Shown: positions 12,031-59,364 of the stretch, one piece after another
Position numbering within the stretch: the stretch's first letter is position 1
How the letters are laid out: the number at the start of each line of letters is the position of its first letter
Assembly: GCA_964370865.1 (NCBI GenBank)
Contig: CAYJKF010000003.1
Coordinates: forward strand, 86,359 to 150,358
DNA length: 64,000 bases
DNA from: an uncultured Candidatus Saccharibacteria bacterium
Lineage (GTDB): Bacteria; Patescibacteriota; WWE3; 2-01-FULL-39-13
Direction: 5' to 3'
Notes under the pieces: model-generated
Told to the model about the DNA's origin: nothing
Seen by the model: only the letters and a program-made list of their open reading frames with translations
Databases searched by the model: none
Translations under genes and position numbers: made by a program

Positions 12031-13699
12031 AATTATACAAAAAGCAGATTTTTATCGAATAGTAAAATTTTCAATGTCTGGTTTACTATCAATTCTTGCT
12101 GGAATCGGTATTGCAAATAGTGCTTTACTTCCTGATGCACCTATTGGAAGTTCACTTAAATTACCTGAAATTTATAATGCGACAGTAAACACTGAGTTTA
12201 GTGTTCCAGTCACTGTAAATACAAATGGAACCCCTGTCGTTGCAATAGATTTTAATTTGAATTTTCCAAAAGAAAAACTTCAGCTTATGCGAATTTCTCC
12301 ATCAGCAACCTTACCAACAACTTTAACCTTTACGCCTTCTTGGTCTCAGATTGTAAATACTGCTAATCAAACTGGAAATCTTTCATTTACTGTTCTAACT
12401 TTTGATACAACAAAATCTACGGTTACAGAGCCAATTGATTCAACAAATGATTTGGTTATAGCGAACTTAATTTTTACACCTTTAGTAGTTAGCCAAGCTG
12501 AAGTAAGTTGGCTCTATTCATATGAATTAACTACTGATAGCAATGTAATAAGTGCAGGTGAGCCCAAAGATATATTAAATAGCGTAACAAGCATGCTAGT
12601 TGTTACAAGTGATCCAACTCCAGTACCAACACCAACACCAACACCAACTCCTGTCCCAACTATATTACCTGATGATACACAAGAAATAACAAATCCAGGG
12701 TTTGAAAATACTTTAACTGGATGGCAAGTATCTGGAACATCTGTAGTTCAGACAGCTCATTCAGGAACAAATGCTGCCAAATTGACTAATACATCAGCAT
12801 ATATTTCACAAAATATCGCTTCGAAATTAAAAGAAAATCAGGCATATGTCTTTTCAGCCTACGTTAAGGTCTCAAAAGCTGGTACAAGCTGGGGTGTTCC
12901 TACTCTACGTTTAAGTAAATATAAGGATTTGGGTAGTTCTGATTTTGGTCAGGCGTTATCTGTAAACAAGGTAGACAGCAATTGGCAACAAATTAAGGTA
13001 ACGAAGACTTTCACGTCATCTGAATTATCTTCAGGGGTCTATGTTGGTATACGTAATTTTGGATTTGATGGAGAATCAATTATAGATGATTTTTCAGTAA
13101 CACAATCAGTCACACCTAGCCCAACACCTACTCCAACAGCTACACCTACGCCAACGGCTACACCAACACCAACACCAACACCTACACCAACGGCAGTGCC
13201 AACTCCAGCTACCATAACTTTAACTGGAAGTATTGTTAATCAAGATGGAGATCAATATACTTCCACAAAGAGCTGGATAGGTACAGGGGCAAATGCATCT
13301 TCTAGCTACACAGGTATTAGATTTGCTGGTGTTAAACTCCCTGCAAATGCAAAGATTCAATCTGCTTTACTAGAAGTAAAAGCGTCTACTACGGAATGGA
13401 TTTTGGTTTCAGTTTCAATAAATGGTGAGAATAGTGGAGATTCTTCAAGATTCTCAAGTAAATCGTTACCAGCATCAAGAAGTCTTACACAGGCTAATGC
13501 TGCTTATTCAAGTGACAGTCAGTGGACTAGTGGGAGTTGGAATAAACTCGATGATATAAGTTCTATTGTGCAGTCAATTGTAAATCGTCAGGATTGGAAA
13601 TCAGGAAATGCACTTAGCATAATAACTAAGGGTACTGGTACAGCTTACGGGCGAAAATCTATAAATGGTGCAAGATTGATCATAACATATACGCAATAA
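12008..13699 (+). CDS. Membrane-anchored modular protein: cohesin-like domain, PT linker, CBM4/9-like carbohydrate-binding module, PT linker, C-terminal beta-rich domain X
   Basis: Overlaps the upstream gene by 23 nt. TM at aa about 20-40. Cohesin-like strands ...FSVPVTVNTNGTPVVAIDFNLNFPKEKLQLMRISPS... CBM signature QEITNPGFENTLTGWQVSG...NFGFDGESIIDDF. Confidence 0.55.
   Translation: MEKMEKTRIIQKADFYRIVKFSMSGLLSILAGIGIANSALLPDAPIGSSLKLPEIYNATVNTEFSVPVTVNTNGTPVVAIDFNLNFPKEKLQLMRISPSATLPTTLTFTPSWSQIVNTANQTGNLSFTVLTFDTTKSTVTEPIDSTNDLVIANLIFTPLVVSQAEVSWLYSYELTTDSNVISAGEPKDILNSVTSMLVVTSDPTPVPTPTPTPTPVPTILPDDTQEITNPGFENTLTGWQVSGTSVVQTAHSGTNAAKLTNTSAYISQNIASKLKENQAYVFSAYVKVSKAGTSWGVPTLRLSKYKDLGSSDFGQALSVNKVDSNWQQIKVTKTFTSSELSSGVYVGIRNFGFDGESIIDDFSVTQSVTPSPTPTPTATPTPTATPTPTPTPTPTAVPTPATITLTGSIVNQDGDQYTSTKSWIGTGANASSSYTGIRFAGVKLPANAKIQSALLEVKASTTEWILVSVSINGENSGDSSRFSSKSLPASRSLTQANAAYSSDSQWTSGSWNKLDDISSIVQSIVNRQDWKSGNALSIITKGTGTAYGRKSINGARLIITYTQ
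12678..13105 (+). repeat. Inverted-repeat copy A (CBM module cassette); partner at 20768-21200
   Basis: Central roughly 300 nt essentially identical to the reverse complement of 20880-21120 (1 mismatch seen in about 240 nt checked). Identity decays at both edges. Confidence 0.85.
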
Positions 13700-15107: not shown

Positions 15108-15614
15108 CTAGCCCCACGGCAATACGGTAAAGTACTTCCAGTTACACTCCCAACGCCCCGCACCGGGAGGTAACAAATAGGGATACCACATGCACTCCTC
15201 GTAGACCAATGAGACCCTGATATGTTTTGGAATCTGGATGATATTTCCAACTTCAGGTTCCCCTGGAGGAGTGTCAACTGGTCGGTATGGGTATACTGTA
15301 ATCTCCCGTTCTAAGTCGCTGGCTATGACTCTATCAACACGAATCCTGTTTGGGTAGTATTCTCCCGTAATTGGATCCTGCCAAACCTCAGTTCCCGACT
15401 CGGAACCATCCCGAAGCCAAAATACAACATGCTTAGCTCGAATCTCGGTCCGTGTCCACCCCGCAACGATTGGTGCAAATATACGATACAACTGTCCTGG
15501 GGTCGGTTCCGGTGTTTGCAGAGGTTCCTGCGCCTGAGCTGTCATAGGAACAATCCCTATTACGACAACCGCCAAAATCTTTATTATAAGATACAGCAAC
15601 TTCGATCTCATCAT
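15108..15614 (-). CDS. Hypothetical secreted protein (GC-rich island 1)
   Basis: Signal peptide. Roughly 50% GC versus about 35% in flanks. Canonical SD AGGAGGG (15616-15622) immediately upstream. The true start is probably the second ATG (15611). Confidence 0.6.
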   Translation of the reverse strand: MMRSKLLYLIIKILAVVVIGIVPMTAQAQEPLQTPEPTPGQLYRIFAPIVAGWTRTEIRAKHVVFWLRDGSESGTEVWQDPITGEYYPNRIRVDRVIASDLEREITVYPYRPVDTPPGEPEVGNIIQIPKHIRVSLVYEECMWYPYLLPPGAGRWECNWKYFTVLPWG

Positions 15615-15823
15615 ACCCTCCTGTGTGAAAATAATGTGCTAAAGCCGCGTTGGCTTGAGTGAGATTATATCAATAACACCTAAATTGTCCTAATTGACGC
15701 TGACTTAAAATTTAAACATGATAGTGAAGAGGTATCAAAAGCCGTGGTGAGTCTCAGAGTTCAAATCTGGAACACCTAATTCAAAATTAATAACATAATC
15801 CGAAAAAATATATATTGATTGAT

Positions 15824-15875
15824 AAAAAAGATTGGGAACCGGTCGATTGCTTGTTAGCATATTCGACCGGTCCCC
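15824..15875 (-). terminator. Rho-independent terminator for the 15885-16232 gene
   Basis: Stem GGGAACCGGTCGA/TCGACCGGTCCCC (1 mismatch) followed on the minus strand by TCTTTTTTATC. Confidence 0.55.
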
Positions 15876-15884
15876 GGCTAGAGG

Positions 15885-16232
15885 TTAGTTCAGCCATCCA
15901 TGATTTGCTGAGCCAGCCTCAAGCGTCGCGGCCACCATCTGGCTTATTTCGTCCTTTATCAGGCCGATTTGCAATGCGTTAAGCACTGTGGAGGCGTTGA
16001 TTCGCCGATCCCCTTCGGGGAACACTACTGTTACAGCCGACATTATTCCATGCTCCTGACATGCAATAATGCCTGTAAAGGCAAATTCTGTTGCGCTTTG
16101 TGGTAACAGCCTTTGAACCAGCGATATACTCTCGTCGCAAATTACGCAATCCGCTAGGCGACATTCACCCGATGTAATCTCCTTTCCAATTACTACAACA
16201 ACCGCCATGAGCGACATTTTCCCTTTACACAT
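15885..16232 (-). CDS. Hypothetical protein (GC-rich island 1)
   Basis: About 48% GC. SD AAGGGAG 8 nt upstream of the ATG. TTGACA-N16-TATAAT promoter upstream. Confidence 0.55.
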   Translation of the reverse strand: MCKGKMSLMAVVVVIGKEITSGECRLADCVICDESISLVQRLLPQSATEFAFTGIIACQEHGIMSAVTVVFPEGDRRINASTVLNALQIGLIKDEISQMVAATLEAGSANHGWLN

Positions 16233-16479: not shown

Positions 16480-16554
16480 TGGTGACCCTACGGGGAGTCG
16501 AACCCCGCTTTACAGGATGAAAACCTGCTGTCCTAACCGATAGACGATAGGGCC
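16480..16554 (-). tRNA. tRNA-Glu (anticodon TTC), CCA encoded
   Basis: Reverse complement GGCCCTA...GGACAGCAGG-TTTTCAT-CCTGT...CGGGG-TTCGACT-CCCCG-TAGGGTC-A-CCA folds as a cloverleaf. Confidence 0.85.
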
Positions 16555-46422: not shown

Positions 46423-48369
46423 TTACTTAATTATCCAATATAATTCTTCACCATTATCTGAAAGCTGAACGGAGGCCAGAGTTTTAATCATTTCACCTGC
46501 ATTGGCGCCAAACAGCTCTCTTTCATTTCTACCTACCACTACGTATTCGATCTCATACCTATTAAGTAGATCTTGTACCTCTAAGTGAGATGCTGATGTA
46601 TACATTTTTTCAATATCACCCATACGGCTTGCAATATAAGGCCAGTCATTTCTCCAACCAAGCTCATGCTCATACCAACCAGCTACTGTAGGTAAACCAG
46701 TATAAGCAGAAACAGTGGAGAAGTTGGAATAAGATTTGCCATGAGCTTCTAGAATTACAGGCTGGCCTTCAATTTCTTGATTTAGCCAATCAATTGTTTT
46801 TTTCTTACCAGGATTAGTATCATCCAAGTACTTATATCCATCTAAACCAACAAATTTCCTATTATTTAAAATATATTTATACGAAATCACAGGATAAGTG
46901 AATATAAAAATTGATAGCGAAATTACTATAATTAATAAGGACAAATTCATTTTGTAACGAAATTTTGTTCGAATAGAATCAACAAGAGTAGAAAGGGAAA
47001 CTCCCGAGATAATTACAAATAATATCCAGGATTGGTACCAGAATTTAAAAAATGTATTTGCTCGATAGAATGGGGGATTAAGAGAATCATAAATATCCTT
47101 AACATAAAATACCATTGGTACAATCATTAAAGTTAACGCAGATAGTAATAGAATATTAAAAGCCATTTTATTATTCTGCTTTTTGTAATTAATAATTCCT
47201 ACGATAGATAGAAGAAGAAAATAACCAAACATTATTATAATCGCGGTTATTGGAGTAGGGTCTCGAACTAAACCAATTCCAGAAGTCGGATTAGTGAAAT
47301 CATGAAGATACCTAAAGATAAATAAAATCGACGTTGCAGGAATAACGAAAAGCAGAAGTAAGGACCTAGGATTGTTGTATCCTTTAATAAAATGTATAAG
47401 AGCGAATAAACCGCAATAAATAACAAAATCCCAAGAATTAATAATAAACAAAGTGCCTAAGACTAAAGATAGATTTATATAAAAAGGAATCGAAATTTTA
47501 TTCTCCTTAAACTCTATACATACAATACATAATCCAATTGCCAGCAAAACGAATGGGACACTAATAATATGTGCGTGCAAATTCCCAATTATAAAACTGT
47601 ATGCTGGAAATTCATTAATAGTACGTTCGATTAAACTTCTAGCATCAGCATAAAAGTATGCAACCTCATTTTTGAATAATATGTGATTGAGGAATGATAG
47701 ATTTCCACCAACTACTAATAATAAACTAGAAAAAATACCAACCCACGCCTTTTTCGTAAGATGATGAACAATAGAAAACATTCCTGTTGCGGCTGTTGCA
47801 AACGTATATGCTACGAAAATATTATAAAGAATGGCATTTGAGATTGATGATAGCTTCGCAACTACTGCAACAATAAAGTGTCCAAAATAATAGTAATTAA
47901 TTGTATGACCAGAAAACCAAACATCTTGTGGAGGCATAACTTCAGTACGGGTTAGTCCATTTATTAATGCGATGTCCATAATATCCTCGACATTATTAAT
48001 ACTAGGAATAAAGGATCGAACTGCCAGCATTGCAAAGAAAGCCACAAAAAATAGGACTTCGGATTTAAGGATATTTAGTAAGAGGGCGGGCTCGCTTAGG
48101 CGAGCCCGCCAAAGATGTGGTTTTCTGTAATACAGAAAACCGCAAACAGCCATTAGCACCAAAACTATTATCCAGAGTGAACTCTGTGTAATATGAAACC
48201 CAAGGATATAACTTAGAATCCAAGCTATATAAGAAACAAAAATTAGACCTAAAGTCCCAGCAAAGGCATATCCTTTATCCAAAAACTTCGGCATCAATAC
48301 CTGAGTTGCAGAAAACCCTATAACTCTAACTGCATATATGACGACTAAGAATAAAAATATTTCGTACAT
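46423..48369 (-). CDS. Large polytopic membrane protein, glycosyltransferase family 39/83-like (ArnT/PMT/DUF2298-type), with C-terminal extracytoplasmic domain
   Basis: About 13 predicted TM segments in the N-terminal roughly 480 aa, then a soluble roughly 160-aa domain. Confidence 0.45.
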   Translation of the reverse strand: MYEIFLFLVVIYAVRVIGFSATQVLMPKFLDKGYAFAGTLGLIFVSYIAWILSYILGFHITQSSLWIIVLVLMAVCGFLYYRKPHLWRARLSEPALLLNILKSEVLFFVAFFAMLAVRSFIPSINNVEDIMDIALINGLTRTEVMPPQDVWFSGHTINYYYFGHFIVAVVAKLSSISNAILYNIFVAYTFATAATGMFSIVHHLTKKAWVGIFSSLLLVVGGNLSFLNHILFKNEVAYFYADARSLIERTINEFPAYSFIIGNLHAHIISVPFVLLAIGLCIVCIEFKENKISIPFYINLSLVLGTLFIINSWDFVIYCGLFALIHFIKGYNNPRSLLLLFVIPATSILFIFRYLHDFTNPTSGIGLVRDPTPITAIIIMFGYFLLLSIVGIINYKKQNNKMAFNILLLSALTLMIVPMVFYVKDIYDSLNPPFYRANTFFKFWYQSWILFVIISGVSLSTLVDSIRTKFRYKMNLSLLIIVISLSIFIFTYPVISYKYILNNRKFVGLDGYKYLDDTNPGKKKTIDWLNQEIEGQPVILEAHGKSYSNFSTVSAYTGLPTVAGWYEHELGWRNDWPYIASRMGDIEKMYTSASHLEVQDLLNRYEIEYVVVGRNERELFGANAGEMIKTLASVQLSDNGEELYWIIK

Positions 48370-48901: not shown

Positions 48902-50950
48902 GTGTTTCAATTACAGTCGACTTATAAACCAGCCGGAGGACAGCCAGACGCCATACAAAAGTTAATTGATGGTGTAAAAAAAGGTGACGATGAGCAGACG
49001 TTACTTGGAGTCACTGGTTCGGGTAAAACCTTCGTTGTTGCAAACTTAATTCAAGAGGTTCAGAAGCCAACTCTAATTATTTCTCATAATAAAACCTTAG
49101 CAGCTCAGTTATATCAAGAATTCAGAGACTTTTTTCCAAATAACGCTGTGGAATATTTTGTAAGTTACTACGACTACTATCAACCAGAAAGTTACCTACC
49201 GGCTACCGATACTTATATAGAAAAGGATTCAGACATAAACGAAGAAATTGATAGACTAAGACTTTCGACAACCGCATCGTTAATTACTCGAAAAGATGTA
49301 ATCGTAGTCGCGTCTGTGTCTTGTATTTATAACCTAGGTTCACCAATCGAATATATGAAACAGATTGTCGAACTAGCAAAAGGTATGAAAATACGTCTAC
49401 AAGATATCTTGCTTAGGCTAAATCAACTTTATTACGAAAGAAATGACATTGACTTTCAGAGAGGAAAATACCGTTTAAAAGGCGATACTTTAGACGTATA
49501 TCCTTCATATCAAAGTTATGCTATTCGCCTTGAACTTTTAGAAGATAGAATCACAAATATAAGTTATTTTGATCCGATATCTGGAGAAATACTTGAAAAG
49601 AATAATATTCCAAAAGATAAAAAATTATCAAAAGCACAAGAAGATTTTGTTAAGAATCAATTTGGATACGGCGACAAAGCAATAATCTATCCAGCTAAGC
49701 ACTACGTTGCACCGGAGGATATGCATGAACAAGCAATGTCCGAAATTCGCAGAGATTTAGAAATACGCCATAAGGATTTAAATGACGCAGATAAAAAAAT
49801 GGAAGCATACCGTTTATCTCAAAGAACTAACTATGATCTCGAAATGATAAAAGAGGTTGGATCATGTAAAGGAATAGAAAACTACTCCCGCTACTTTGAT
49901 GGAAGAAAAGAAGGGGAACCTCCACATTCATTAATGGAATTTTTCCCGAAAGACTATTTGCTTGTTGTTGATGAATCACACATAACAGTTCCACAAATAA
50001 GAGCAATGTATAACGGAGATAGAGCACGTAAACAAACTTTAGTTGATTATGGTTTTAGACTTCCATCCGCGCTTGATAATAGACCACTTAAATTTGATGA
50101 ATTCGAACGAAGAATGGGTCAAACAGTATACGCTTCCGCTACACCTACAGAATGGGAATTAGCTCGAAGTAAGCAGGTTGTCGAGCTTGTTGTAAGACCA
50201 ACTGGATTAATCGATCCTGAAATCGAAATACTTCCATCAAAAGGACAAATTCAAGACCTAGAAGCAAAGTGCAGAGAAGTTATAAGCAAAAAAGAGAGAG
50301 TATTAGTAACGACATTAACTAAACGAATGGCAGAGGACTTATCCGGTTACTTCGCAGATAAGGGATTTAAAGTCGCTTATCTCCACAGCGATATTGAGAC
50401 ACTCGAGAGATCAGATATCCTCGATAATTTAAGAAAAGGCGAATACGATATTTTAGTTGGAATTAACCTTCTCAGAGAAGGGTTAGACTTGCCAGAAGTA
50501 TCACTCGTCGCGATTTTGGATGCAGATAAAGAAGGATTCCTAAGGAGCCAAACCTCTTTAATTCAAACAATGGGTAGAGCAGCAAGGCACTTACAAGGAA
50601 AAGTTGTAATGTATGCGGATACAATTACCGGCTCCATGCAAAGGGCAATTGAGGAAGTAGGCAGAAGAAGAGAAATCCAAATTCAATACAACAAAGATAA
50701 CAATATAACACCAATTTCTATTCAAAAGCCTATTCGAGATAGGATTCTTGAAAAAATTATTGATATCGATGAATCCGAAAACATCGAAGAAATGGAAATT
50801 GAAAAATTCGAATTTCAAACTATGTCGCCTAAAAAACAGAAGGATATTATCAAAAAACTCGAGCTAAAAATGAAGACAGCAGCCGAACTTCTTGAATTCG
50901 AAACCGCCGCAAGACTTAGAGACAGGGTAAAAGAACTCAAAGCTAAGTAA
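48902..50950 (+). CDS. uvrB: Excinuclease ABC subunit B
   Basis: GTG start. GVTGSGKTF Walker A. Helicase motifs. C-terminal UvrB/UvrC-interaction helix ELLEFETAARLRDRVKELK. Confidence 0.9.
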   Translation: MFQLQSTYKPAGGQPDAIQKLIDGVKKGDDEQTLLGVTGSGKTFVVANLIQEVQKPTLIISHNKTLAAQLYQEFRDFFPNNAVEYFVSYYDYYQPESYLPATDTYIEKDSDINEEIDRLRLSTTASLITRKDVIVVASVSCIYNLGSPIEYMKQIVELAKGMKIRLQDILLRLNQLYYERNDIDFQRGKYRLKGDTLDVYPSYQSYAIRLELLEDRITNISYFDPISGEILEKNNIPKDKKLSKAQEDFVKNQFGYGDKAIIYPAKHYVAPEDMHEQAMSEIRRDLEIRHKDLNDADKKMEAYRLSQRTNYDLEMIKEVGSCKGIENYSRYFDGRKEGEPPHSLMEFFPKDYLLVVDESHITVPQIRAMYNGDRARKQTLVDYGFRLPSALDNRPLKFDEFERRMGQTVYASATPTEWELARSKQVVELVVRPTGLIDPEIEILPSKGQIQDLEAKCREVISKKERVLVTTLTKRMAEDLSGYFADKGFKVAYLHSDIETLERSDILDNLRKGEYDILVGINLLREGLDLPEVSLVAILDADKEGFLRSQTSLIQTMGRAARHLQGKVVMYADTITGSMQRAIEEVGRRREIQIQYNKDNNITPISIQKPIRDRILEKIIDIDESENIEEMEIEKFEFQTMSPKKQKDIIKKLELKMKTAAELLEFETAARLRDRVKELKAK

Positions 50951-50989: not shown

Positions 50990-51646
50990 ATGTCCAGACG
51001 TAAATCATCGAATTCCAATGCTTATTTAATTCTTGCCTTAGCACTGATATTTGGTACTGGTTTTCTGTATTTTAATCAAATTTCCCCAAAAGTCTTATCG
51101 GATCATGACGAAATAATAGGATTTGATGAAGATACAATCAAAGGAACGCCAACACCAACCACTAGTGCAAGTCCCACTCCAACCGGAATAACAACACCAA
51201 TTCCAGAACCTACTTTCACTATTCCCGATGAACCAATTAGCGATGCAGATAAGGAACCAATAGATTTTTTTAATAGACCTTTTGAAGAATTATCCTCCTT
51301 ATATAAATCCGCATCTTCTACAGTAGCTTCACAATTTGGAATCAACTCAAGCGAAGAAATAAAATTAAAGAAAACGATGATCTTAACAGAAGTCAGATAT
51401 CAAAAAATGCTAGAACAAATAGGCACTACCATTAATCAAAATCGAGATAAATACACACCTGAAAAATTACAAACCCTATTAACTCAATATAATGATTTGA
51501 AAGTGAATCTTGATGGATTTGAAAAAGCTCTAGAAACGATTGAAAGTGGACAAGATTTAAATGCAACGGTAAATGGTATCAAAGGAAATTCCGAAGCAAT
51601 GAGAAAGCAAATCCAAGCTTTAATAAATAATTTAGGAGTAGAATAG
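50990..51646 (+). CDS. Hypothetical membrane-anchored protein with PT linker
   Basis: N-terminal TM. TPTPTTSASPTPTGITTP. Confidence 0.45.
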   Translation: MSRRKSSNSNAYLILALALIFGTGFLYFNQISPKVLSDHDEIIGFDEDTIKGTPTPTTSASPTPTGITTPIPEPTFTIPDEPISDADKEPIDFFNRPFEELSSLYKSASSTVASQFGINSSEEIKLKKTMILTEVRYQKMLEQIGTTINQNRDKYTPEKLQTLLTQYNDLKVNLDGFEKALETIESGQDLNATVNGIKGNSEAMRKQIQALINNLGVE

Positions 51647-51647
51647 A

Positions 51648-52268
51648 ATGCCTGACGACTTACCAAACTTAAATATCGGTTCAGCAAGCCCAGATATTGT
51701 GCCTACTGACATTCCTTTAGCTGAAATTCCCGCTGATGTGAAGGTAGAGTCAAGTAACCCAATGCCACCAACCGACGAAAATCCTAATGCACAAAATGTA
51801 GGCGAGCTATTTGAAGATCGTCCATCATTTTTAGGAGACCAAGCAATCTTTGGTGGTCAAAATACAGAGCCCAAAAATCATAAAACCGCAAATTTCAATA
51901 AAACCTACGAGGCAAATGTACAAACCAATAAAAAAAGTCACATAAAGGAAATTATTATAATTGGATTAGGTATATTCATGCTTCTTATATCGGGTGGCAC
52001 CTACTTATTTCTAAATAAAGACAGGTACTTTGGGCCAAAGACTGTCCCCTCTGACCAACAAGTTGTTCCCAGTACAGACAACAATGAACCAAGTGGAAAA
52101 ATTGACTTTGGTGATGCTCAATTACCTGAAGATATAAACTCTGACACCTTTATTAGAAGCTTAGATCAAGTATCTCAGGAAAATAATGTGAGTCAGAAAA
52201 TCATTTTATTACAACAACTAGACATTCCATCAGTTAATGTTGAATTGATGAAAATTACTCTGCAGTAG
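51648..52268 (+). CDS. Hypothetical single-TM protein
   Basis: TM at aa about 105-127. Confidence 0.4.
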   Translation: MPDDLPNLNIGSASPDIVPTDIPLAEIPADVKVESSNPMPPTDENPNAQNVGELFEDRPSFLGDQAIFGGQNTEPKNHKTANFNKTYEANVQTNKKSHIKEIIIIGLGIFMLLISGGTYLFLNKDRYFGPKTVPSDQQVVPSTDNNEPSGKIDFGDAQLPEDINSDTFIRSLDQVSQENNVSQKIILLQQLDIPSVNVELMKITLQ

Positions 52269-52331: not shown

Positions 52332-55253
52332 ATGAACGAATTCATAAAAGTTCACGGAGCTAACGAACACAACCTCAAAAACGTCAGTTTAGAAATTCCA
52401 AAGAATAAATTAGTGGTCTTTACAGGAGTATCTGGCTCAGGAAAATCATCTCTAGCAATGGATACAATCTTCGCTGAGGGCCAAAGAAGATATGTGGAAT
52501 CATTATCATCATATGCAAGACAGTTTTTAGGTGTTATGAAAAAACCTGCAGTTGAATCTATCGAAGGTTTATCTCCAGCTATCGCAATTGATCAAAAAAC
52601 TGTTTCTCACAATCCAAGATCAACTGTTGGAACCGTTACCGAAATATATGATTATATGAGATTATTATTCGCACGTATTGGACACCCACATTGTCCAAAT
52701 TGTGGCAGAGAAATTGAACATTTATCCGTTGATCAAATTGTAGGATTAATATGCAAATCTCATGAAAAATCAACCAAACAAACAAGAATAATGATTTTGT
52801 CACCTCTCGTTAAAGATAGAAAAGGTGAGTACAATCAGCTTTTTGGCAACCTAATCAAACAAGGTTACGCCAGAGTCAGGATAGATGGAAAAGTATATCA
52901 ACTAAAGGAAGACATTAATTTAATTAAGACCAATAAACATACAGTTGAAGTAATCGTAGATAGGCTTGTATTGACTACAGAAAAGATTGCAGATAAAGAA
53001 TTTATTTCTAGGTTATCTCAATCAGTAGAAACCGCACTTACGCTAGGCAATGGTTTTGTAATTTCAACTAAGGTAATGGATTCTGGTTTTGAATTTCCAG
53101 AGGCTCCTACAAAAATGCAAGACCACTTATATAGTGAAAGATTTGCTTGCCCAGTATGTAATATCTCTCTCCCAGAAATTGAACCCAGAAGTTTTTCTTT
53201 TAATTCTCCTCATGGTGCATGCGAAGTATGTACTGGCCTTGGAACAGAATTAAAAATAAATACAGAAACGATTATCGCAGATGAATTAAGTGTTCTTGAA
53301 GGTGGAATAATTCCTTGGGCATCTTTGGTTGAAAAAGATGGTTGGAATAGAGCTGTACTCGAAGCGCTATCTCGTACTCATGGAATTGATTTACGAGCCC
53401 CACTCAATAAATTAACCAAAGAAAAAATACAATTATTATTAAAAGGTACTGGCAGTCAAATTTACGATGTCTTTTATAAAGGTCGAACAGTTAATGGCAA
53501 ATTTGAAGGAGTTGTAACTAACCTAGAGAGAAGGTACAAAGATACTGATTCTGAATATATAAGACATGAAATAGAAAAATATATGATTAAGGAGCCATGT
53601 CCAAAATGTAAGGGAGACAGGTTAAGCGATAAGGCGTTAAGCGTAACCATACACGAGAGTAATATTGCTTATGTCTCGGCGCTTTCGGTTAAAGAATGTA
53701 AGGACTGGATTACTAATTTAGAGAAAATAAATGTATCTAAAAGGGAAATAGAAATTAGTACAGCCATCATAAGAGAAATAGAATCGAGATTAGAATTCTT
53801 AATTGACGTTGGACTATCGTATTTAACTATCTCAAGAGCTTCTGCCACACTTGCAGGAGGAGAAGCTCAGCGTATCCGACTTGCCTCACAAATCGGATCT
53901 AAATTATCCGGAGTCTTATATGTTTTAGATGAACCGTCTGTTGGATTACATACAAGAGATCATTCCAAATTAATTAAGACTCTAAAAGATTTGAGAGATT
54001 TGGGAAATACTGTGCTTGTAGTTGAACACGACGAGCAAACAATGCTCGAATCAGATTATATTTTTGATTTTGGACCTGGCGCAGGACATAAAGGTGGAAC
54101 TTTGGTTGCAAGTGGTACTCCCGAGGAATTAAAGAATAATGAAAAATCAATTACTGGTCCATATCTTTCTGGAAAAAAGAAAATTACCGCTGACAATTAT
54201 TTTTCTAAAGAAGATTTAAAGAAAATAAAAGAAATCGGCACCGTTGATGATAATACAAAATGGATTAAGCTAGTAGGAGCTTCAGGACATAATTTAAAAA
54301 ATATTGATGTCGATTTTCCTCTCAACAAATTAATTTCAGTTACCGGAGTTTCTGGATCAGGAAAATCTACACTTATAAACGAAACTTTATTAGCATTACT
54401 ACGAGAAGAAAAGGGTCTTAAAAATGACCATAAACCAGCAGATTGCAAGGGAATAATAGGAGCAGAATTAGTCGATAAAATTATTAGCATTGATCAAAAC
54501 CCAATTGGACGAACTCCAAGAAGTAATCCTGCAACTTATACTAAAGTTTTTGATGAAATAAGAGAGCTTTTCGCACAAAGTAAAACAGCTAAAATTAGAG
54601 GTTACAAAGCAGGTCGATTCTCATTTAATGTAAAAGGTGGACGTTGCGAAGCATGCCAAGGAGACGGCCAAAATAAAATTGAAATGCAATTTATGCCAGA
54701 TGTATATGTTGACTGCGAAGTCTGTGGAGGCAAACGTTATAATCGAGAAACCTTAGAAGTAGAATATAAAGATAAAACCGTCGCAGATGTTTTGGATTTA
54801 ACAGTAGACGACGCTCTAGCATTTTTTGAACATCACACAAAAATTCACGATAAGCTAATGACTCTTCATGACGTTGGACTAGGATATATAACTCTTGGAC
54901 AATCAGCCACTACTTTATCAGGAGGAGAAGCACAACGAGTCAAATTAGCCGCAGAACTATCTAAAAAAGGAACAGGAAAGACTTTCTACGTTTTAGACGA
55001 GCCAACCACAGGTTTACATTTTGCCGATTTAGAAAGATTAATTTCAATCATGAGAAGGCTTGTTCTAAAAGGCAATACAGTACTAGTAATAGAACATAAC
55101 CTCGATATCATTAAAAACTCAGACTGGATTATCGACCTTGGCCCAGATGGCGGTAAAGACGGCGGAGAAGTCATTTTTACAGGTTCCATAGCCGATTTAT
55201 TAAAAGATAAGAAATCATATACCGCAGATGCTGTTAGAAAATGGGTGGTGTAA
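52332..55253 (+). CDS. uvrA: Excinuclease ABC subunit A
   Basis: Two ABC modules ([11 protein letters not shown] and [11 protein letters not shown]). Zn-finger Cys pairs. Signature LSGGEAQR. Confidence 0.9.
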
Positions 55254-55385
55254 CGCAAACCTCATAACTATAATTAAATAGCCTTGTATACCATTGACCT
55301 AATAGTATAATTATAGGACGTTCGCAACGCGCGAATCGGTTTTTCGCACATTAATAACATATCAACCAGAACAAGGAGATAGATC

Positions 55386-57500
55386 ATGAATACTCGACTA
55401 ACAGTGTTCGTTTTTGTGGCTGCAATCATCATGAGTAGCTTGCCATCTAATGCAAACGCTCAAGATGTGACCTCTGAAGAAGTTTGGACACCAATCTACG
55501 CAGAAGTTCCTCAGGTTGTTGAGTCAGCATCCTTGAACAGAAACGATTATGTTTGTTTCTGGGAAAAGGTTGTGGATGAGACAGTCCAAGAGGCCGATAC
55601 ATCGCAGTTTTTGGCAACAGTAGAAACGCCAACTGCGTACTCAGGAAATCGTGCTTTCAGACGTTTCGGTGACGAAACACCTTCTGGAACCACGACGAGA
55701 ATTAAACTGTCAGCTCAACTAGCAATCCCAGAAGCCGAGCTCGTTTTTATAAGAGCTTACTACCGTGGCATAGACGTTGGTCAGTACGACAACATCGTAG
55801 CTTCGGTGAAGGTGAATGGACAAGATTTACCAGGAAGCGCACCAGTACAGCTCACGCGTGGACCAGTCAGCAATGATTGGCAAAGATGGGAAGTTGTTTT
55901 ACCACAAGGATCTACAAGTGTGGATTTCGAACTTTTCGGGAACTATGTCGATGGAAACTCATACGACATAGACCAAGTCGGCATCGGCTGGTGTAAGACC
56001 GCCACCAATGCTGAACCAGAGATATTGCCACCAGGCGATATCCTTAGTATGTATGCACCAGTACTGCTATTTGGTGGGCAACTCCGAAACCACGGAACAA
56101 GTGCCATTGTGGCATTTGACCCAAGAGGGCTCAGAAGTTTTGAGTTACTCTGGGAAGCAGGAGAAGCTAGTAAGGTTTTGAACCGCCAATGGGGCTTGGG
56201 AGACAATCCCGCCGGTTGGCATTATGGAGGACTGAGACTCGGGGACAAGCTATGGATGGCGAAGGATAGTCTAGAATCATGGAGTTACGCAGGGAAGATC
56301 ACCAGCACTCGCTGTTTTTCCGAAGTAGGTTGTGCCAACCACATGAATGCGCTTCTTCAGAAGATTGCACAAATGGAGCGATCCGGTAACTCAAATCCAG
56401 ATAAACTGCAACATCTCAAGGACGTTGCGCTATGGATGGAGGGAAAGATCGGGTATTACACGGAAGTAGTTAAGCAGGGAAGACTTGCTTACTTGCAACA
56501 GCAGGTGAATTTGGTCTTTGAGGTTAGGGGAGCACAGTTGTCCGAATCCTACAGCAAAATGGGTAGGTATCAGTATATACTGGATGGTCGGATGCCTTGG
56601 AGTCAGCTAAGAGCTATAGAGATGCCAGCTGGCACAAGTCGCCAAATGTCCCTCAATATATGGAAGCAATTCGTCGCTTCGGGAGCCCCACGCATCACGA
56701 AGTTAGTAGTCGGTGATGTCGAGGAACAGATTTCCTTATGGACACGCTACACTGGTCAGTTGAGGAGCTATAATGTTCCAAGTCTAATTGCCGTAGGTGG
56801 AACAGCACTTACCGCGACGATGACATACGTTAGATCAGCAACTGCACTAGCAAATGAATATGCACTACCAGCAGTAGGTGCTGTCGTTGGTGGTGATGCG
56901 CTACTTGATACTCTGATGTACGTGGATTTAGATCCCAACGAAACCTCAATGAGTTGGGATGAATATCTAGTCTCCGAGAATCTTCTCGTGGCTGCACTCT
57001 CTGGCAGAGAATCCAGTTTGCCGATTGTGCAATCAATTATCGGCTACGAGAATTCGTCGCTACAAATCTGTATTCCACAAGAGAAGGAATTTCTTGTGAA
57101 CTACGATCTTCATGCCACTTCGTTCACACATCCTCAGGTGTGTTCATTCCAGTGGTGGAAGATTTCGGCAAAAGACGACAATGGTGTAACTATCTCCAAA
57201 GTTGGGACTGACATCCAACTTCCACTCTCACAAGAGCTAGGTGGCAGTACATACTCCATGGCATCGTTCGATCGAGATCACGGCATGATATTGGCTGACT
57301 TCTGGTTTGAACTAGTGAGGTTCGATTCCGCGCAAAACACTGCGACTATTGCAGTATCATTTGTCGGTTTTCGGACTTCGGAGGAGCTAGGGCTCTGTTA
57401 TGCCTGGCTACCGCCGGAAAAGTCTCAAGCCCTTGGGCGCGAACAATGTGCCAAAGGGGCGCAACAGGCGTACTTACCAGCAGTAAGTTCTGGCCGGTAA
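55386..57500 (+). CDS. Hypothetical secreted protein (704 aa) encoded in GC-rich island 2
   Basis: Signal peptide. Noticeably higher GC than flanks. Canonical SD AAGGAG (55373-55378) 7 nt upstream. Confidence 0.6.
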   Translation: MNTRLTVFVFVAAIIMSSLPSNANAQDVTSEEVWTPIYAEVPQVVESASLNRNDYVCFWEKVVDETVQEADTSQFLATVETPTAYSGNRAFRRFGDETPSGTTTRIKLSAQLAIPEAELVFIRAYYRGIDVGQYDNIVASVKVNGQDLPGSAPVQLTRGPVSNDWQRWEVVLPQGSTSVDFELFGNYVDGNSYDIDQVGIGWCKTATNAEPEILPPGDILSMYAPVLLFGGQLRNHGTSAIVAFDPRGLRSFELLWEAGEASKVLNRQWGLGDNPAGWHYGGLRLGDKLWMAKDSLESWSYAGKITSTRCFSEVGCANHMNALLQKIAQMERSGNSNPDKLQHLKDVALWMEGKIGYYTEVVKQGRLAYLQQQVNLVFEVRGAQLSESYSKMGRYQYILDGRMPWSQLRAIEMPAGTSRQMSLNIWKQFVASGAPRITKLVVGDVEEQISLWTRYTGQLRSYNVPSLIAVGGTALTATMTYVRSATALANEYALPAVGAVVGGDALLDTLMYVDLDPNETSMSWDEYLVSENLLVAALSGRESSLPIVQSIIGYENSSLQICIPQEKEFLVNYDLHATSFTHPQVCSFQWWKISAKDDNGVTISKVGTDIQLPLSQELGGSTYSMASFDRDHGMILADFWFELVRFDSAQNTATIAVSFVGFRTSEELGLCYAWLPPEKSQALGREQCAKGAQQAYLPAVSSGR

Positions 57501-57508
57501 GGCAACAA

Positions 57509-57570
57509 AAGGCGTTATGCGAATTTTTGGATCTAATCCATTAAATCTCGTATAGCGCCTTGTTTTTTTT
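57509..57570. terminator. Bidirectional terminator-like hairpin (AAGGCGTTATGCG ... CGTATAGCGCCTT, 11/13 bp) with T8 run
   Basis: Lies between convergent genes. U-run on the + strand. Confidence 0.5.
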
Positions 57571-57997
57571 ATAGGGTAATTGATTCGTTATTAAAAAATA
57601 CCGATGCTTTATATTGAATATCTTCACCATCTTTTGGATCTGAATTTGCCTGAATAATCGCACTCACATTATCTTCAGTTAAATTAACATCAAATCTTTT
57701 TCTACTTGAATCAAAATACCAATATCCACCTTGGGTTTGCTTATCATCTAAACTCAATTGACCAGATACTTCATTTACAAATGAGCCACTAGGATTAAAT
57801 GTTAAATAATGCATAAGGTTACCGACAGTAAAACCATCCACAATAGAAGAAAGTTGTTCTAAAACTTCTATGTGAGCTTGAGAATTTTTGCCCTTTAGGG
57901 GACCCAATTTGGAATCTTTAAATCTCTTTAAAAAAGAAGTCGTTTCTTGTTCTAACTCGGCGATTCTTGAATCTTCTAAGACTGTAGGATTATTCAC
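57569..57997 (-). CDS. Hypothetical protein
   Basis: 142 aa. No recognisable domain. Confidence 0.4.
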   Translation of the reverse strand: MNNPTVLEDSRIAELEQETTSFLKRFKDSKLGPLKGKNSQAHIEVLEQLSSIVDGFTVGNLMHYLTFNPSGSFVNEVSGQLSLDDKQTQGGYWYFDSSRKRFDVNLTEDNVSAIIQANSDPKDGEDIQYKASVFFNNESITL

Positions 57998-58023
57998 GAT
58001 ATAATTATATCATTCACATAGCT

Positions 58024-59364
58024 ATGTTTGATATTTCGAATCTCCCCGAAAGCCCAGGGGTCTACATCTACAAAGATCACACTAAAAAAGTCCTATATGT
58101 AGGCAAAGCAGTTAATCTCAAAAACCGTGTTAAAAGCTATTTCCAAAATATCGAAGCTTTAAGCCCTAAAACACAGGCAATGATTAGCAAAATCGCTGAT
58201 ATAGAACATATAAACGTTGAAAATGAAATCGAAGCCTTGTTACTCGAAGCCGATTTAATCAAGAGATATAGACCGCCTTACAACATCACACTAAAGGACG
58301 ATAAATTTTATAAATACATCAAAATAGGAAAAAACAAATTACCAACTCCAGATGGAGAATCTAAAACAATTTCCAAAATAGTCACCTCACGTAAAAAAAC
58401 AAAAGAAGGCGAATATTTTGGTCCATATCCTGAATCAAACTCAATTCTAGTAATCACAAAAACCTTGAGAAAAATATTCCCATACAGAGATTGTTCAACT
58501 CAAAAATTCACCAGATATCAAAAAACAAAAAGACCTTGTTTATATGGACATCTTGGATTATGTCCTGCGCCATGCCAAGGAGGCGAAGCAATAACCGAAA
58601 ACAATATTAATATTAAAAAAATTCAAGAGTACCTTAGCGGAAAACGATCCCTAATGTTTAAGCAATTAGAACGAGAAATGAAAGAGCTATCCAAAAATCA
58701 TGAATATGAAAAGGCCGCAGTAATCCGGGATCAAATTAATAGTTATAACTACTTAACCCAAACTAAAAATAACGTAAATGAATATCTTAAAAACCCAGAC
58801 CTAATCCACAATAAAGGTTCAGATGCTGTTACTAAACTATTAACGGAACTGGAAAAATCATTCAAACTACAATTTACAAATACCGATACTGAAACATTTA
58901 GAATAGAAACTTATGATATATCGAACATGTCTGGTAAATCGGCAATTGGTGCTATGGCAGTTACAACTGGAGGCGTTCCAGATAAAAGCGAATACCGAAA
59001 ATTCCGAATAAAAACAAAAGACACACCAGATGACTTTTTTATGCTCCAAGAAATTCTAAAAAGAAGATTTAATAGAATAGGGGAGTCAGAGTGGGAATCG
59101 CCAGATTTAATAGTAATCGATGGAGGAAAAGGACAACTTTCATCAGCTATTGAAGCAATCGAATCAAAAGACATCAAAATTCCTATAATCTCACTCGCCA
59201 AAAAAGAAGAACTAATTTTTTACTATGACGGAAAGGAATTTCAATACATAAACCTAGATATAAATAATCCAGCTCTAAAACTAGTAATTATTGGTAGAGA
59301 CGAAGTCCATAGATTTGGAATTGCATACCATAGACAACTTCGAATGAAAAATCTGTATCAATAG
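58024..59364 (+). CDS. uvrC: Excinuclease ABC subunit C (short form lacking C-terminal (HhH)2)
   Basis: GIY-YIG GVYIYKDHTKKVLYVGKAVNLKNR. RNase H-like C-terminal LIVIDGGKGQL. Confidence 0.85.
   Translation: MFDISNLPESPGVYIYKDHTKKVLYVGKAVNLKNRVKSYFQNIEALSPKTQAMISKIADIEHINVENEIEALLLEADLIKRYRPPYNITLKDDKFYKYIKIGKNKLPTPDGESKTISKIVTSRKKTKEGEYFGPYPESNSILVITKTLRKIFPYRDCSTQKFTRYQKTKRPCLYGHLGLCPAPCQGGEAITENNINIKKIQEYLSGKRSLMFKQLEREMKELSKNHEYEKAAVIRDQINSYNYLTQTKNNVNEYLKNPDLIHNKGSDAVTKLLTELEKSFKLQFTNTDTETFRIETYDISNMSGKSAIGAMAVTTGGVPDKSEYRKFRIKTKDTPDDFFMLQEILKRRFNRIGESEWESPDLIVIDGGKGQLSSAIEAIESKDIKIPIISLAKKEELIFYYDGKEFQYINLDINNPALKLVIIGRDEVHRFGIAYHRQLRMKNLYQ

What the first reader, a model, noticed from the sequence alone, without database searches (positions are those of the whole stretch)
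55300..57570. GC-rich island 2: 704-aa secreted protein inserted between uvrA and uvrC
The single gene at 55386-57500 is markedly GC-richer than its neighbours. It has a canonical SD (AAGGAG, 7-nt spacing), a signal peptide and its own terminator (57509-57570). It interrupts an otherwise contiguous DNA-repair block (uvrB ... uvrA | island | uvrC). The protein has no recognisable motif. Its compositional and translational-signal contrast with host genes mirrors island 1 and suggests the same foreign source.
Basis: seen in the sequence. Interest (0 to 1): 0.55.

Follow-up and report, generated by a model that had tools for sequence, protein, structure and literature searches.

The report
GC-rich secreted-protein cassette between uvrA and uvrC
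A tiny uncultured (Patescibacteria) bacterium carries, wedged between two DNA-repair genes, a self-contained gene for a secreted protein of a rare undescribed family. The gene is far richer in G+C than the rest of the genome, and so is every known relative in its own genome, so the G+C excess looks like a trait of the gene family rather than proof of recent foreign origin.

Summary
ORF 55386-57500 (704 aa) has GC 0.478 and GC3 0.445, against 0.354±0.025 and 0.262±0.036 for 46 host ORFs (z≈5). It has an AAGGAG Shine-Dalgarno (SD) site 7 nt from the ATG, a Sec signal peptide and a strong hairpin+T8 terminator.

It is an insertion. At least 8 more distant relatives have uvrA abutting uvrC.

The "recent foreign import" reading is only partly supported:
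- A sister species (uvrC 94% aa identical) has a homolog at the same spot with the same GC. It is only 35% identical and its synonymous sites are saturated, so the alleles predate the flanks.
- All 7 family loci with context are 0.09-0.15 GC above their own flanks (r=0.83 with host GC).
- No donor lineage, phage or plasmid relative was found among about 15 billion proteins.
- The coding sequences carry unusually strong local RNA structure.

The protein has no Pfam, NCBIfam or PDB sequence match. A modest AlphaFold model shows two lectin/CBM-like β-sandwiches flanking a conserved α/β core.

Host genes are mostly leaderless. This gene and "island 1" share a leadered module: a hairpin with an AACGC loop, then GCACATTA, then the SD site.

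Most likely it is a variable, exchangeable, secreted host- or envelope-binding factor. Its biochemical function is unproven.

The parts
55259..58041 (.). Variable (replaced) segment between uvrA and uvrC
   Evidence: Nucleotide homology with the sister-lineage contig L037 ends at the uvrA stop (window 55258) and resumes inside uvrC at about codon 7 (window 58042). L037 holds 3.9 kb of different content in between. At least 8 more distant relatives have uvrA directly followed by uvrC.
55284..55311 (+). Putative promoter (TTGTAT-N16-TATAAT)
   Evidence: Read from the sequence. The -10 hexamer is a perfect TATAAT at 55306-55311. The -35 is weak, so the consensus scan did not list it. A TATAAT is present at the equivalent place in L008 and upstream of the island-1 gene. 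This is inference, not a mapped start site.
55320..55336 (+). Leader hairpin GTTCGC-AACGC-GCGAAT
   Evidence: The fold is. The island-1 leader has a hairpin with the identical AACGC loop but a different stem (AAGCC/GGCTT). The terminator scan also flags it as terminator-like, followed by a T-run.
55346..55353 (+). Leader motif GCACATTA
   Evidence: It is conserved in the sister allele's leader (TTTTGCACATTAAC) even though synonymous sites in the CDS are saturated. It is also present in the island-1 leader and in that gene's relative L034. The composite pattern AACGC-N5-22-GCACATT occurs only twice in the window, against 0.07 expected.
55373..55378 (+). Shine-Dalgarno AAGGAG, 7 nt before the ATG
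   Evidence: SD-like sites precede only 5 of 46 window genes.
55386..57500 (+). CDS for a 704-aa secreted protein. Signal peptide: residues 1-25. N-terminal β-sandwich: about 55-205. α/β core: about 216-450. Gly/Ala-rich hydrophobic helices: about 465-515. C-terminal β-sandwich: about 548-664. Conserved Cys pair: C671/C688. Terminal motif: LPAV.
57510..57571 (+). Intrinsic terminator between two convergent genes (long hairpin + T8)
   Evidence: z = -4.75. An analogous hairpin + T7 follows the sister allele.
57569..57997 (-). 142-aa ORF of unknown function with host-like composition; part of the variable segment
   Evidence: GC 0.322 and GC3 0.196. A TATAAT ends 6 nt before its GTG start. No family hits. 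In the sister lineage an unrelated 267-aa SAM methyltransferase occupies this position.
52332..55253 (+). uvrA (left conserved flank)
   Evidence: NF001503/TIGR00630. It is 87% nt identical to L037.
58024..59364 (+). uvrC (right conserved flank). It is short, 446 aa, with no C-terminal HhH region.
   Evidence: Against L008 it is 94% aa identical, with dS 0.71 and dN 0.03.
15108..15668 (-). 'Island 1' gene: a 168-aa secreted protein (GC 0.487) with the same leader module
   Evidence: A 66%-identical, equally GC-rich homolog lies directly after tRNA-Glu in a related organism.

Best explanation
This is a real, self-contained accessory gene cassette: promoter, roughly 65-nt leader with a strong SD site, Sec signal peptide, and its own terminator. 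Together with an unrelated small ORF it sits in a replacement hot spot between uvrA and uvrC of a WWE3-like Patescibacteria (CPR) genome.

It encodes a member of a rare, undescribed family of secreted multidomain proteins. The layout is two lectin/CBM-like β-sandwiches around a conserved α/β core, then a disulfide-stapled C-terminal knob, and a terminal (Y)LPxV(x)R tag.

Inferred mechanism: the protein is exported by Sec and its signal peptide is cut after ANA. It then acts outside the cell as a binding and perhaps envelope-modifying factor on the surface of the partner or host cell or on polymers. Because such factors are under pressure to diversify, whole alleles are swapped between related genomes by recombination in the conserved uvrA and uvrC flanks.

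Its high G+C is a property of the gene family, carried wherever the family occurs. It is linked to a leadered, SD-dependent, highly structured mRNA in an otherwise AT-rich, largely leaderless genome. It is not the fading signature of one recent import from a GC-rich donor.

Shown: the cassette anatomy, the insertion, the allele depth, the family-wide GC offset, the structure excess and the shared leader module. Inferred: extracellular binding function, exchange by flank recombination, and the reason for the GC excess.
For: - Anatomy and composition.
- Insertion versus the ancestral uvrA|uvrC adjacency.
- Stability: the same arrangement and an identical protein occur in 22 contigs from many samples, with only 1 SNP in the gene in the most divergent strain. 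It is therefore neither an assembly artefact nor hypermutating.
- Allele depth: in the sister lineage the flanks are 85-90% nt identical with dS 0.5-0.95. The gene is 35% aa identical, and at identical 4-fold codons the third base matches 30% of the time, against 27% by chance and 51-66% in the flanks. The neighbouring ORFs also differ.
- Family-wide GC excess: an offset of 0.087-0.151 in 7 loci, r = 0.83 with host GC. The excess persists beside a co-diverged NADAR neighbour with host-like GC.
- RNA structure: the excess is -4 to -6 kcal/mol per 120 nt against synonymous-codon shuffles (z -6 to -10), while host genes are near 0. It is larger than in 8 of 9 E. coli control genes. The mean dinucleotide-shuffle z is -0.3 to -2.1 against -0.49 for E. 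coli.
- Extracellular nature: signal peptides in the family members whose N-terminus is confidently called, conserved Cys pairs, Asp-rich Ca-binding-type repeats inserted before the terminal tag in the longer homologs, and weak β-sandwich matches to CBM4/16/35 and phage receptor-binding domains.
- No relatives in phage, plasmid or IMG/VR collections.
Against: - Function is not demonstrated. The AlphaFold model is modest (pLDDT 57.5, built from 8 sequences). Fold matches are weak (E about 1e-3 to 1e-5, TM normalised to target ≤0.46) and cover only the β-sandwiches.
- The family has only 8 known members. The taxonomy of five of the loci could not be checked. Some loci are not independent (window/L008, L020/L022).
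- GC1, GC2 and GC3 together look like a gene equilibrated in a genome of about 47% GC, which is what a foreign gene would look like.
- E. coli genes also show some structure excess, so that signal could simply travel with a moderate-GC origin.
- The window allele's closest known relative is the syntenic sister allele. This also fits a single ancient insertion.
- No mechanism that maintains GC at one gene has been shown.
Confidence: 0.5

Rival explanations
1. Classical horizontal acquisition. The gene, and separately the sister allele and every other family member, was imported fairly recently from unsampled organisms of about 45-57% GC, such as the bacterial hosts of these episymbionts or their phages. 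It has not yet ameliorated.
For: - GC1, GC2, GC3, amino-acid usage and G- and C-ending codon use all look like a genome of about 47% GC.
- The SD-led translation signal is unlike the leaderless host genes.
- It is inserted relative to ancestral synteny.
- The allele is older than its flanks.
- The structure excess is of the kind seen in E. coli genes.
- Island 1 lies next to a tRNA gene.
Against: - An exhaustive HMMER pass over 1.84 billion cluster representatives found only 7 relatives. Every one with context sits in an AT-richer contig and shows the same contrast.
- The gene's GC tracks host GC with a near-constant offset. Independent donors would not give that.
- In L020/L022 the GC-rich gene and its host-like NADAR neighbour have diverged to the same extent.
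- There is no integrase, att repeat or mobile-element gene at the site.
- There are no phage or plasmid relatives.
Confidence: 0.22
2. One ancient insertion in the common ancestor of the two sister species, followed by very fast in-place divergence under diversifying selection, with GC held up by selection on the mRNA.
For: - The two syntenic alleles are each other's closest known relatives.
- They share the leader motif and the cassette architecture.
- dN of the gene (0.77) is in the range of the flanks' dS (0.5-0.95).
Against: - Synonymous 4-fold sites at conserved residues are at chance identity (30% versus 27%), whereas the flanks are at 51-66%.
- There is no sign of an elevated mutation rate within the population: 1 SNP in 2.1 kb, and an identical protein in 23 contigs.
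- The adjacent ORFs were also replaced.
Confidence: 0.13
3. Functional alternative: the protein is a secreted toxin or effector. It could be a membrane-inserting protein with receptor-binding β-sandwiches and a hydrophobic helical hairpin, or an enzyme whose damage is countered by neighbouring NADAR-type proteins. The adjacent variable small ORFs would then act as immunity or accessory genes.
For: - A NADAR-superfamily gene lies next to family members in three loci from two lineages: PF08719 downstream in L020/L021 and L022, and PF08010/PF08719 upstream in L037. [quoted passage not shown]
- There is a conserved Gly/Ala-rich hydrophobic segment ending in an invariant Asp (Kyte-Doolittle (KD) hydropathy up to 1.9).
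- Conserved H236, E257, R309, E379, R409 and D504 could form an active site.
- There are weak Foldseek hits to Cry-toxin β-sandwich domains.
- Non-homologous neighbours accompany divergent alleles.
Against: - No ART, toxin or pore-former domain was found by Pfam, NCBIfam, PADLOC-independent profile searches or PDB profile search.
- The predicted core is mainly helical, not ART-like.
- The window itself has no NADAR gene.
- In L037 the NADAR-like gene may belong with the uvr DNA-repair genes rather than with this gene.
- The 142-aa ORF is convergent, not co-transcribed.
Confidence: 0.12

Closest known systems
Replacement ('flexible') genomic islets between conserved housekeeping genes that carry variable surface or secreted-protein alleles, as in capsule/O-antigen loci and the variable surface-protein loci of streptococci and Neisseria. 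This comparison rests on general knowledge.
   Same: - The flanks are conserved (uvrA, uvrC; 85-90% nt) and bracket non-alignable content.
- The alleles are much older than the flanks.
- The cargo is secreted.
- The composition is atypical.
   Different: - The cargo is a single gene of an unknown family.
- No mobility genes or repeats are present.
- The GC excess is shared by every family member in every genome and scales with host GC. That is not the usual picture of an islet borrowed from one donor.
Carbohydrate-binding-module / lectin-like β-sandwich domains (CBM4, CBM16, CBM35) and the receptor-binding domains of phage tail fibres
   Same: The best structural matches of the model's β-sandwich regions have Foldseek probability 0.96-1.0 and TM normalised to target 0.36-0.46. 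The protein is also extracellular and has conserved Cys residues at the start and end of the N-terminal sandwich (C57, C203).
   Different: There is no sequence-profile match to any CBM family. E-values are only 1e-3 to 1e-5. The model confidence is moderate. The central 235-residue α/β core, the hydrophobic segment and the C-terminal tag have no counterpart.
Three-domain Cry toxins (PDB 8w7n, 4moa, 1w99)
   Same: Both are secreted multidomain proteins that combine helical and β-sandwich domains. There are weak local matches (E 1.6e-3 to 3.6e-3).
   Different: The matches have TM about 0.1 and rmsd 10-15 Å, so they are local β-sandwich similarity only. The domain order differs. There is no sequence similarity.
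DarT-NADAR and other NADAR-linked conflict systems (PMC11543638, PMC11125620)
   Same: A NADAR-superfamily gene is the immediate neighbour of three family members from two lineages.
   Different: No ADP-ribosyltransferase domain was detected in the 704-aa family. The window locus has no NADAR gene. The association may be incidental or may relate to DNA repair.

Membership tests
Horizontally acquired genomic island (classical) | Base composition and codon usage deviate from the host genome | tested here: met
   GC z = 5.0 and GC3 z = 5.2 against 46 host ORFs. Codon shift.
Horizontally acquired genomic island (classical) | Absent from the syntenic site of related genomes | tested here: inconclusive
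   It is absent in at least 8 distant relatives, where uvrA abuts uvrC. A very divergent allele is present at the same site in the only close relative found.
Horizontally acquired genomic island (classical) | Mobility signatures: integrase or transposase, flanking direct repeats or att sites, tRNA target | tested here: not met
   There are no flanking repeats beyond promoter-like TATAATTATA palindromes. No mobility gene lies in the segment. No tRNA is adjacent. Island 1 does lie next to tRNA-Glu, but no att-like copy was found.
Horizontally acquired genomic island (classical) | An identifiable donor lineage with matching composition | tested here: not met
   There are only 7 relatives among 1.84 billion representatives, and all of them are GC-rich relative to AT-richer flanks. 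None were found in IMG/VR, INPHARED or PLSDB.
Sec (SPase I) secreted protein | N-terminal basic n-region, hydrophobic h-region, AXA cleavage motif, no lipobox Cys | tested here: met
   The sequence is MNTR-LTVFVFVAAIIMSSL-PSNANA|QD. Its h-region is the top hydropathy peak, KD 1.78. Homologs have equivalent N-termini ending in AQ(E/D/T). No dedicated signal-peptide predictor was available.
CBM / lectin-like β-sandwich | Jelly-roll β-sandwich fold similar to solved CBMs | tested here: inconclusive
   Foldseek E is 2e-3 to 7e-3 and TM normalised to target is 0.36-0.43, against CBM4-2, CBM35 and CBM16. The model's mean pLDDT is 57.5.
CBM / lectin-like β-sandwich | Sequence-profile membership in a curated CBM family | tested here: not met
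   No Pfam or NCBIfam hit for any of the 8 members.
Sortase (LPXTG) substrate | LPXTG motif followed by a hydrophobic helix and a basic tail | tested here: not met
   The family ends with (Y)LPxV(x)R at the very C-terminus. No transmembrane segment follows, and the stop codon is TAA.
Diversity-generating retroelement target | Template/variable repeat pair and a reverse transcriptase nearby; within-population hypervariation | tested here: not met
   No repeat pair involves the gene. The protein is identical in 23 contigs, with 1 SNP in the most divergent strain.
ADP-ribosyltransferase toxin with NADAR antitoxin | ART catalytic domain (R-S-E or H-Y-E) in the toxin | tested here: not met
   No ART family hit. 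The predicted core is mostly helical.
ADP-ribosyltransferase toxin with NADAR antitoxin | Adjacent NADAR gene | tested here: inconclusive
   It is absent in the window. It is present next to the homologs in L020/L021, L022 and L037.
Intrinsic (Rho-independent) terminator | GC-rich hairpin followed by a U-tract | tested here: met
   MFE -28 kcal/mol, z = -4.75, followed by GU8. An analogous element follows the sister allele.
Known cis-regulatory or structured RNA (Rfam) | Covariance-model match | tested here: not met
   No Rfam match in 55200-57650 at E ≤ 1. The whole window yields only 3 tRNAs.

The most novel reading that the evidence does not exclude
The GC-rich 'islands' of this Patescibacteria genome are not foreign DNA. 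They would be a distinct native expression class: secreted host-interaction genes carried on leadered, SD-dependent mRNAs with a shared leader module (AACGC-loop hairpin + GCACATTA). Their coding regions would be under selection for dense secondary structure, for example for mRNA longevity or controlled translation and export in an AT-rich organism that otherwise uses leaderless mRNAs. That selection would drive G+C up at all codon positions, family-wide. If so, compositional HGT detectors systematically mislabel such genes.
Probability: 0.25. Interest if true: 0.7.

Novelty: new variant of a known kind. Interest (0 to 1): 0.5.

Why it matters
Patescibacteria (CPR) make up a large share of bacterial diversity. 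They live attached to other microbes, yet almost nothing is known about the proteins that mediate that contact. This locus gives a concrete candidate: a secreted, lectin-domain, rapidly replaced protein family with no annotation.

It is also a cautionary case for composition-based calls of horizontal transfer. The GC excess travels with the gene family across genomes and scales with host GC. It is coupled to a different mode of translation initiation and to strong mRNA structure.

If the shared leader module is regulatory, it marks a small regulon of secreted factors that could be traced genome-wide.

Tried and rejected
- Word-indexed homology searches with the protein and with the 8-sequence profile returned only the protein itself. 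The exhaustive HMMER pass was needed to find relatives.
- The single-sequence AlphaFold model was unusable, with pLDDT 38.
- A PDB profile search gave only a chance XPD hit at E about 1.
- A DGR or hypermutation origin is rejected: there are no TR/VR repeats and the population is invariant.
- A phage or plasmid origin is not supported.
- An rRNA or ncRNA explanation for the GC peak is rejected.
- Flanking att-type repeats were not found.
- The metagenome scan with UvrC found no further close relatives, all ≤62% identical. Denser sampling of the locus was therefore impossible.
- The alignment-based locus scan failed because the family is too divergent.
- Scanning viral contigs with the loose leader pattern gave more than 120 hits that are most simply chance matches. 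They were not examined and the scan was uninformative.
- The 142-aa ORF is not NADAR-like. It is also unrelated to the ORFs that neighbour the homologs.
- The methyltransferases near L020 and L037 are unrelated.
- Literature searches found no description of GC-rich secreted-gene islands or of this motif in CPR.
Full report
**1. What is there**

The window is an AT-rich genome piece (GC 0.362). Its UvrC is 94% identical to that of a Patescibacteria MAG and 50-60% identical to MAGs labelled WWE3 or Saccharibacteria.

The ORF at 55386-57500 (+) is real: 704 codons, ATG start, TAA stop. Its GC is 0.478 and its GC3 is 0.445. The 46 other ORFs average 0.354±0.025 and 0.262±0.036, so z = 5.0 and 5.2, and no host ORF exceeds GC3 0.335. 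The GC step coincides with the gene's ends.

The shift affects both G- and C-ending synonymous codons. AAG is 73% of Lys codons versus 22% in host genes, and TAC is 61% of Tyr codons versus 29%. Amino-acid usage shifts too, with less K, I and N and more A, Q, V, W, G and R.

The other stated features all check out:
- AAGGAG lies 7 nt before the ATG.
- There is a Sec-type signal peptide ending ANA|QD.
- A strong hairpin followed by T8 sits at 57510-57571 (z = -4.75).

The flanks are uvrA (52332-55253) and a short uvrC (58024-59364); uvrB is at 48902-50950. It also lies between the gene and uvrC.

**2. It is an insertion, but not a simple recent one**

In more distant relatives uvrA is followed directly by uvrC, with gaps of 0-120 bp. 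This holds in L009, L011-L015, L025/L026 and L028. A few lineages carry other cargo at that junction: transglutaminase-core secreted proteins in L030 and L033, and an unknown ORF in L032. The junction is therefore a recurrent insertion point.

The only close relative found is MAG JAUPVU01 (L008/L038), with a longer contig of the same lineage, L037. It has, in order: uvrA, a 204-aa Phage_30_3/NADAR-like gene, a 722-aa GC-rich gene (GC 0.478, flanks 0.33), a methyltransferase on the minus strand, and uvrC.

The 722-aa protein is a full-length homolog of the window protein but only 35% identical. The flanking genes are 91-97% identical in protein, with dS 0.5-0.95 and dN 0.01-0.04.

At residues that are identical and four-fold degenerate, the third codon base agrees in 30% of cases in the GC-rich gene, against 27% by chance. 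In the three flanking genes it agrees in 51-66% of cases. Nucleotide homology stops exactly at the uvrA stop codon and resumes about 6 codons into uvrC. The two alleles are therefore far older than the genomes around them.

Ongoing hypermutation is excluded. The identical protein occurs on 23 contigs from many samples. The most divergent strain has one SNP in the gene, and there are no DGR-type repeats.

The simplest reading is whole-cassette replacement by recombination in the conserved flanks, or long-lived allelic lineages. A single ancient insertion with very fast divergence is less likely.

**3. The family and its composition**

Pfam, NCBIfam, PHROGs and PDB sequence or profile searches find nothing. 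An exhaustive HMMER pass over 1.84 billion cluster representatives found only seven relatives at 25-36% identity.

All members with genomic context lie in AT-richer contigs of uncultured organisms, in at least four unrelated neighbourhoods. The neighbours include YchF/MFS, DnaB...NADAR, and GT2/DegT. I could not verify the taxonomy of these contigs.

Every family gene is richer in GC than its own flanks, by 0.087-0.151 (mean 0.123±0.024). Gene GC correlates with flank GC (r = 0.83, n = 7, not all independent).

In the L020 and L022 lineages the family proteins are 34% identical and their immediately downstream NADAR proteins are 36% identical. The pair therefore appears co-inherited. Yet the family gene has GC3 0.62-0.64 and the NADAR gene 0.36-0.38.

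No relative was found in IMG/VR, INPHARED phages or PLSDB plasmids. Together these results argue that the GC excess is a persistent trait of the family rather than the unameliorated trace of one import. They do not exclude an unsampled GC-richer reservoir.

**4. An unexpected correlate: structured coding sequence**

I compared 120-nt windows with dinucleotide-preserving shuffles. The mean z-scores were:
- window gene: -1.47, with 35-41% of windows below -2 in two runs;
- homologs: -1.26, -1.74, -0.90, -0.81, -2.08 and -0.31;
- host or flanking genes: -0.4 to +0.3.

The antisense strand gave a weaker signal in both genes tested.

I then shuffled synonymous codons, which keeps the protein and the codon usage. 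The native genes are 4.0-6.1 kcal/mol per 120 nt more stable than the shuffles (gene-level z -5.9 to -9.9). Host genes are near 0.

Nine E. coli genes at about 53% GC served as calibration. They gave differences of -0.35 to -4.4 kcal/mol, and a mean dinucleotide z of -0.49 with a maximum of -1.03. The family is therefore at or beyond the upper end of a normal moderate-GC genome, not in a different universe.

This signal is compatible with selection on mRNA structure, which would demand G/C at synonymous sites. It is also compatible with origin in a moderate-GC lineage. It does not decide between them. The island-1 gene did not show it, but only 4 windows were available.

**5. Translation and regulatory contrast**

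Only 5 of 46 window genes have an SD-like site at proper spacing, and three of those are the GC-rich ORFs. In contrast, 24 of 46 have a -10-like hexamer ending within 25 nt of the start, mostly 5-10 nt before it. This suggests leaderless mRNAs.

The GC-rich gene has a TATAAT about 75 nt upstream and hence a leader of roughly 65 nt. The leaders of this gene and of the island-1 gene (15108-15614, minus strand; 168-aa secreted protein, GC 0.487) share a module:
- a hairpin with the identical loop AACGC but different stems (GTTCGC/GCGAAT versus AAGCC/GGCTT);
- then GCACATTA;
- then ACAnAGGAG;
- then the ATG.

The composite pattern occurs only at these two places in 64 kb, against 0.07 expected, and in 0 of 100 shuffles did it occur twice. 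This count is post hoc.

GCACATT(A) is also kept in the sister allele's leader and in the island-1 relative L034.

Island 1 is likewise conserved. A 66%-identical and equally GC-rich homolog lies directly after tRNA-Glu in a related organism.

**6. What the protein probably is**

With the 8-sequence alignment, AlphaFold2 gave mean pLDDT 57.5, with 70-90 over much of residues 230-450 and parts of 548-664. The predicted parts are:
- an N-terminal β-sandwich at about 55-205, bracketed by conserved C57 and C203 and the DQVG motif;
- an α/β core at about 216-450, with conserved H236, E257, R309, W350, E379, R409 and G433-A-P;
- a Gly/Ala-rich hydrophobic helical segment ending in the invariant D504 (KD hydropathy 1.4-1.9 across members);
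- a C-terminal β-sandwich at about 548-664;
- an invariant Cys pair, C671 and C688;
- an invariant LP within a terminal (Y)LPxV(x)R.

The longer homologs insert Asp-rich, Ca-binding-type repeats between the Cys pair and the terminal motif. The motif therefore behaves as a C-terminal tag. It is not an LPXTG sorting signal, because no transmembrane segment follows.

Foldseek finds only weak β-sandwich matches: CBM4/16/35, Cry-toxin β-sandwich domains, and phage tail-fibre or receptor-binding domains.

I therefore commit, with moderate-to-low confidence, to an extracellular binding role. The protein would be an adhesin-like or envelope-acting factor for contact with the partner cell or with polymers. 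The conserved core could be enzymatic.

A toxin or effector role is the main functional rival. It is prompted by the NADAR neighbours in three loci from two lineages (NADAR function from PMC11543638 and PMC11125620) and by the hydrophobic segment. No toxin domain was detected.

**7. Verdict**

The insertion is real. The interpretation of a recent foreign island from the same source as island 1 is only partly supported. The gene belongs to a rare, unannotated secreted-protein family whose members are GC-rich wherever they occur, and its alleles are exchanged or long-lived at this locus.

This is a new variant of a known kind, a variable secreted-protein islet. Its unusual twists are the family-wide GC offset, the structured leadered mRNA in a leaderless genome, and the shared leader module. 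Interest is moderate (0.5). The biology is potentially informative for CPR-host interaction and for the limits of compositional HGT calls, but function and mechanism remain inferred.

Noticed in passing
window, all genes (e.g. 48413, 48902, 4923, 57997-, 38006-39598-): Most host genes lack an SD site and have a TATAAT-like hexamer ending about 5-10 nt before the start codon. This implies largely leaderless mRNAs. Only 5 of 46 genes have SD-like sites.
   Followed up: partly
window 15617-15668 (-) and 55320-55378 (+); L034 212-270; L008 40-106: The GC-rich secreted-protein genes share a leader module: a hairpin with an identical AACGC loop but different stems, then GCACATTA, then ACAnAGGAG. The composite pattern is unique to these two leaders in the window. 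It may be a binding site or regulatory RNA element.
   Followed up: partly
window 55386-57500; L008 107-2275; L018 196-2967; L020 8001-10553; L022 942-4379: The coding sequences of the family have a strong excess of local secondary structure. It is 4-6 kcal/mol per 120 nt beyond synonymous-codon shuffles. The mean dinucleotide-shuffle z is -0.8 to -2.1 in these loci. Host genes show none, and 9 E. coli genes show less on average.
   Followed up: partly
L020 10683-11411, L021 2809-3537, L022 4482-5264, L037 5227-5841: A NADAR-superfamily gene (PF08719, or PF08010 Phage_30_3) is the immediate neighbour of the family gene in three loci from two lineages. In L037 it sits between uvrA and the GC-rich gene. 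It could therefore equally be a DNA-repair accessory that removes ADP-ribose from bases.
   Followed up: partly
window 15108-16232 (-), tRNA-Glu 16480-16554 (-): Island 1 has two GC-rich ORFs downstream of tRNA-Glu: a 168-aa secreted protein with a conserved Cys pair and a 115-aa ORF. A related organism (L034/L035) has only the 168-aa homolog (66% identical, GC 0.515), about 240 nt after the tRNA. No att-like repeat was found.
   Followed up: partly
window 12632-13155 and 20723-21246: A 524-nt inverted repeat, 91% complementary, is shared by two large PT-linker-rich secreted-protein genes on opposite strands (12008-13699 + and 19141-21921 -). It looks like a recently duplicated or converted domain.
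   Followed up: no
window 46423-48369 (-), about 48040-48150: The DUF2298 membrane-protein gene differs in length between otherwise 99.7-100% identical strains. It is one 648-aa ORF in the window, L002 and L003. In L001 and L004-L007 it is 518-535 aa plus a small ORF, with a 60-200-nt indel region.
   Followed up: no
L030 8170-9954 (-), L033 8305-9933 (+), L032 5765-6718 (-): In other lineages the uvrA|uvrC junction holds different cargo. L030 and L033 have signal-peptide proteins with a transglutaminase-core domain, and L032 has an unknown ORF, all with host-like GC. The junction is a recurrent insertion site.
   Followed up: partly
window 58024-59364 and relatives L008-L015: UvrC in this clade is short (435-463 aa). 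It ends right after the RNase H-like endonuclease domain and so lacks the C-terminal helix-hairpin-helix region of canonical UvrC, whose model is about 574-650 positions long.
   Followed up: no
window 50990-51646 and 51648-52268: Two ORFs of unknown function lie between uvrB and uvrA. The first has an N-terminal transmembrane or signal segment. ORFs of similar size occupy this position in nearly all relatives examined, so the 'DNA-repair block' is not purely repair genes.
   Followed up: no
C-termini of window 55386-57500 protein, P0006, P0008-P0013: All family members end with (Y)LPx(V/I)x(R/K) at the extreme C-terminus, with L and P invariant. The motif is kept terminal even when Ca-binding-type Asp repeats are inserted before it. 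It may be an unrecognised sorting or anchoring tag.
   Followed up: partly
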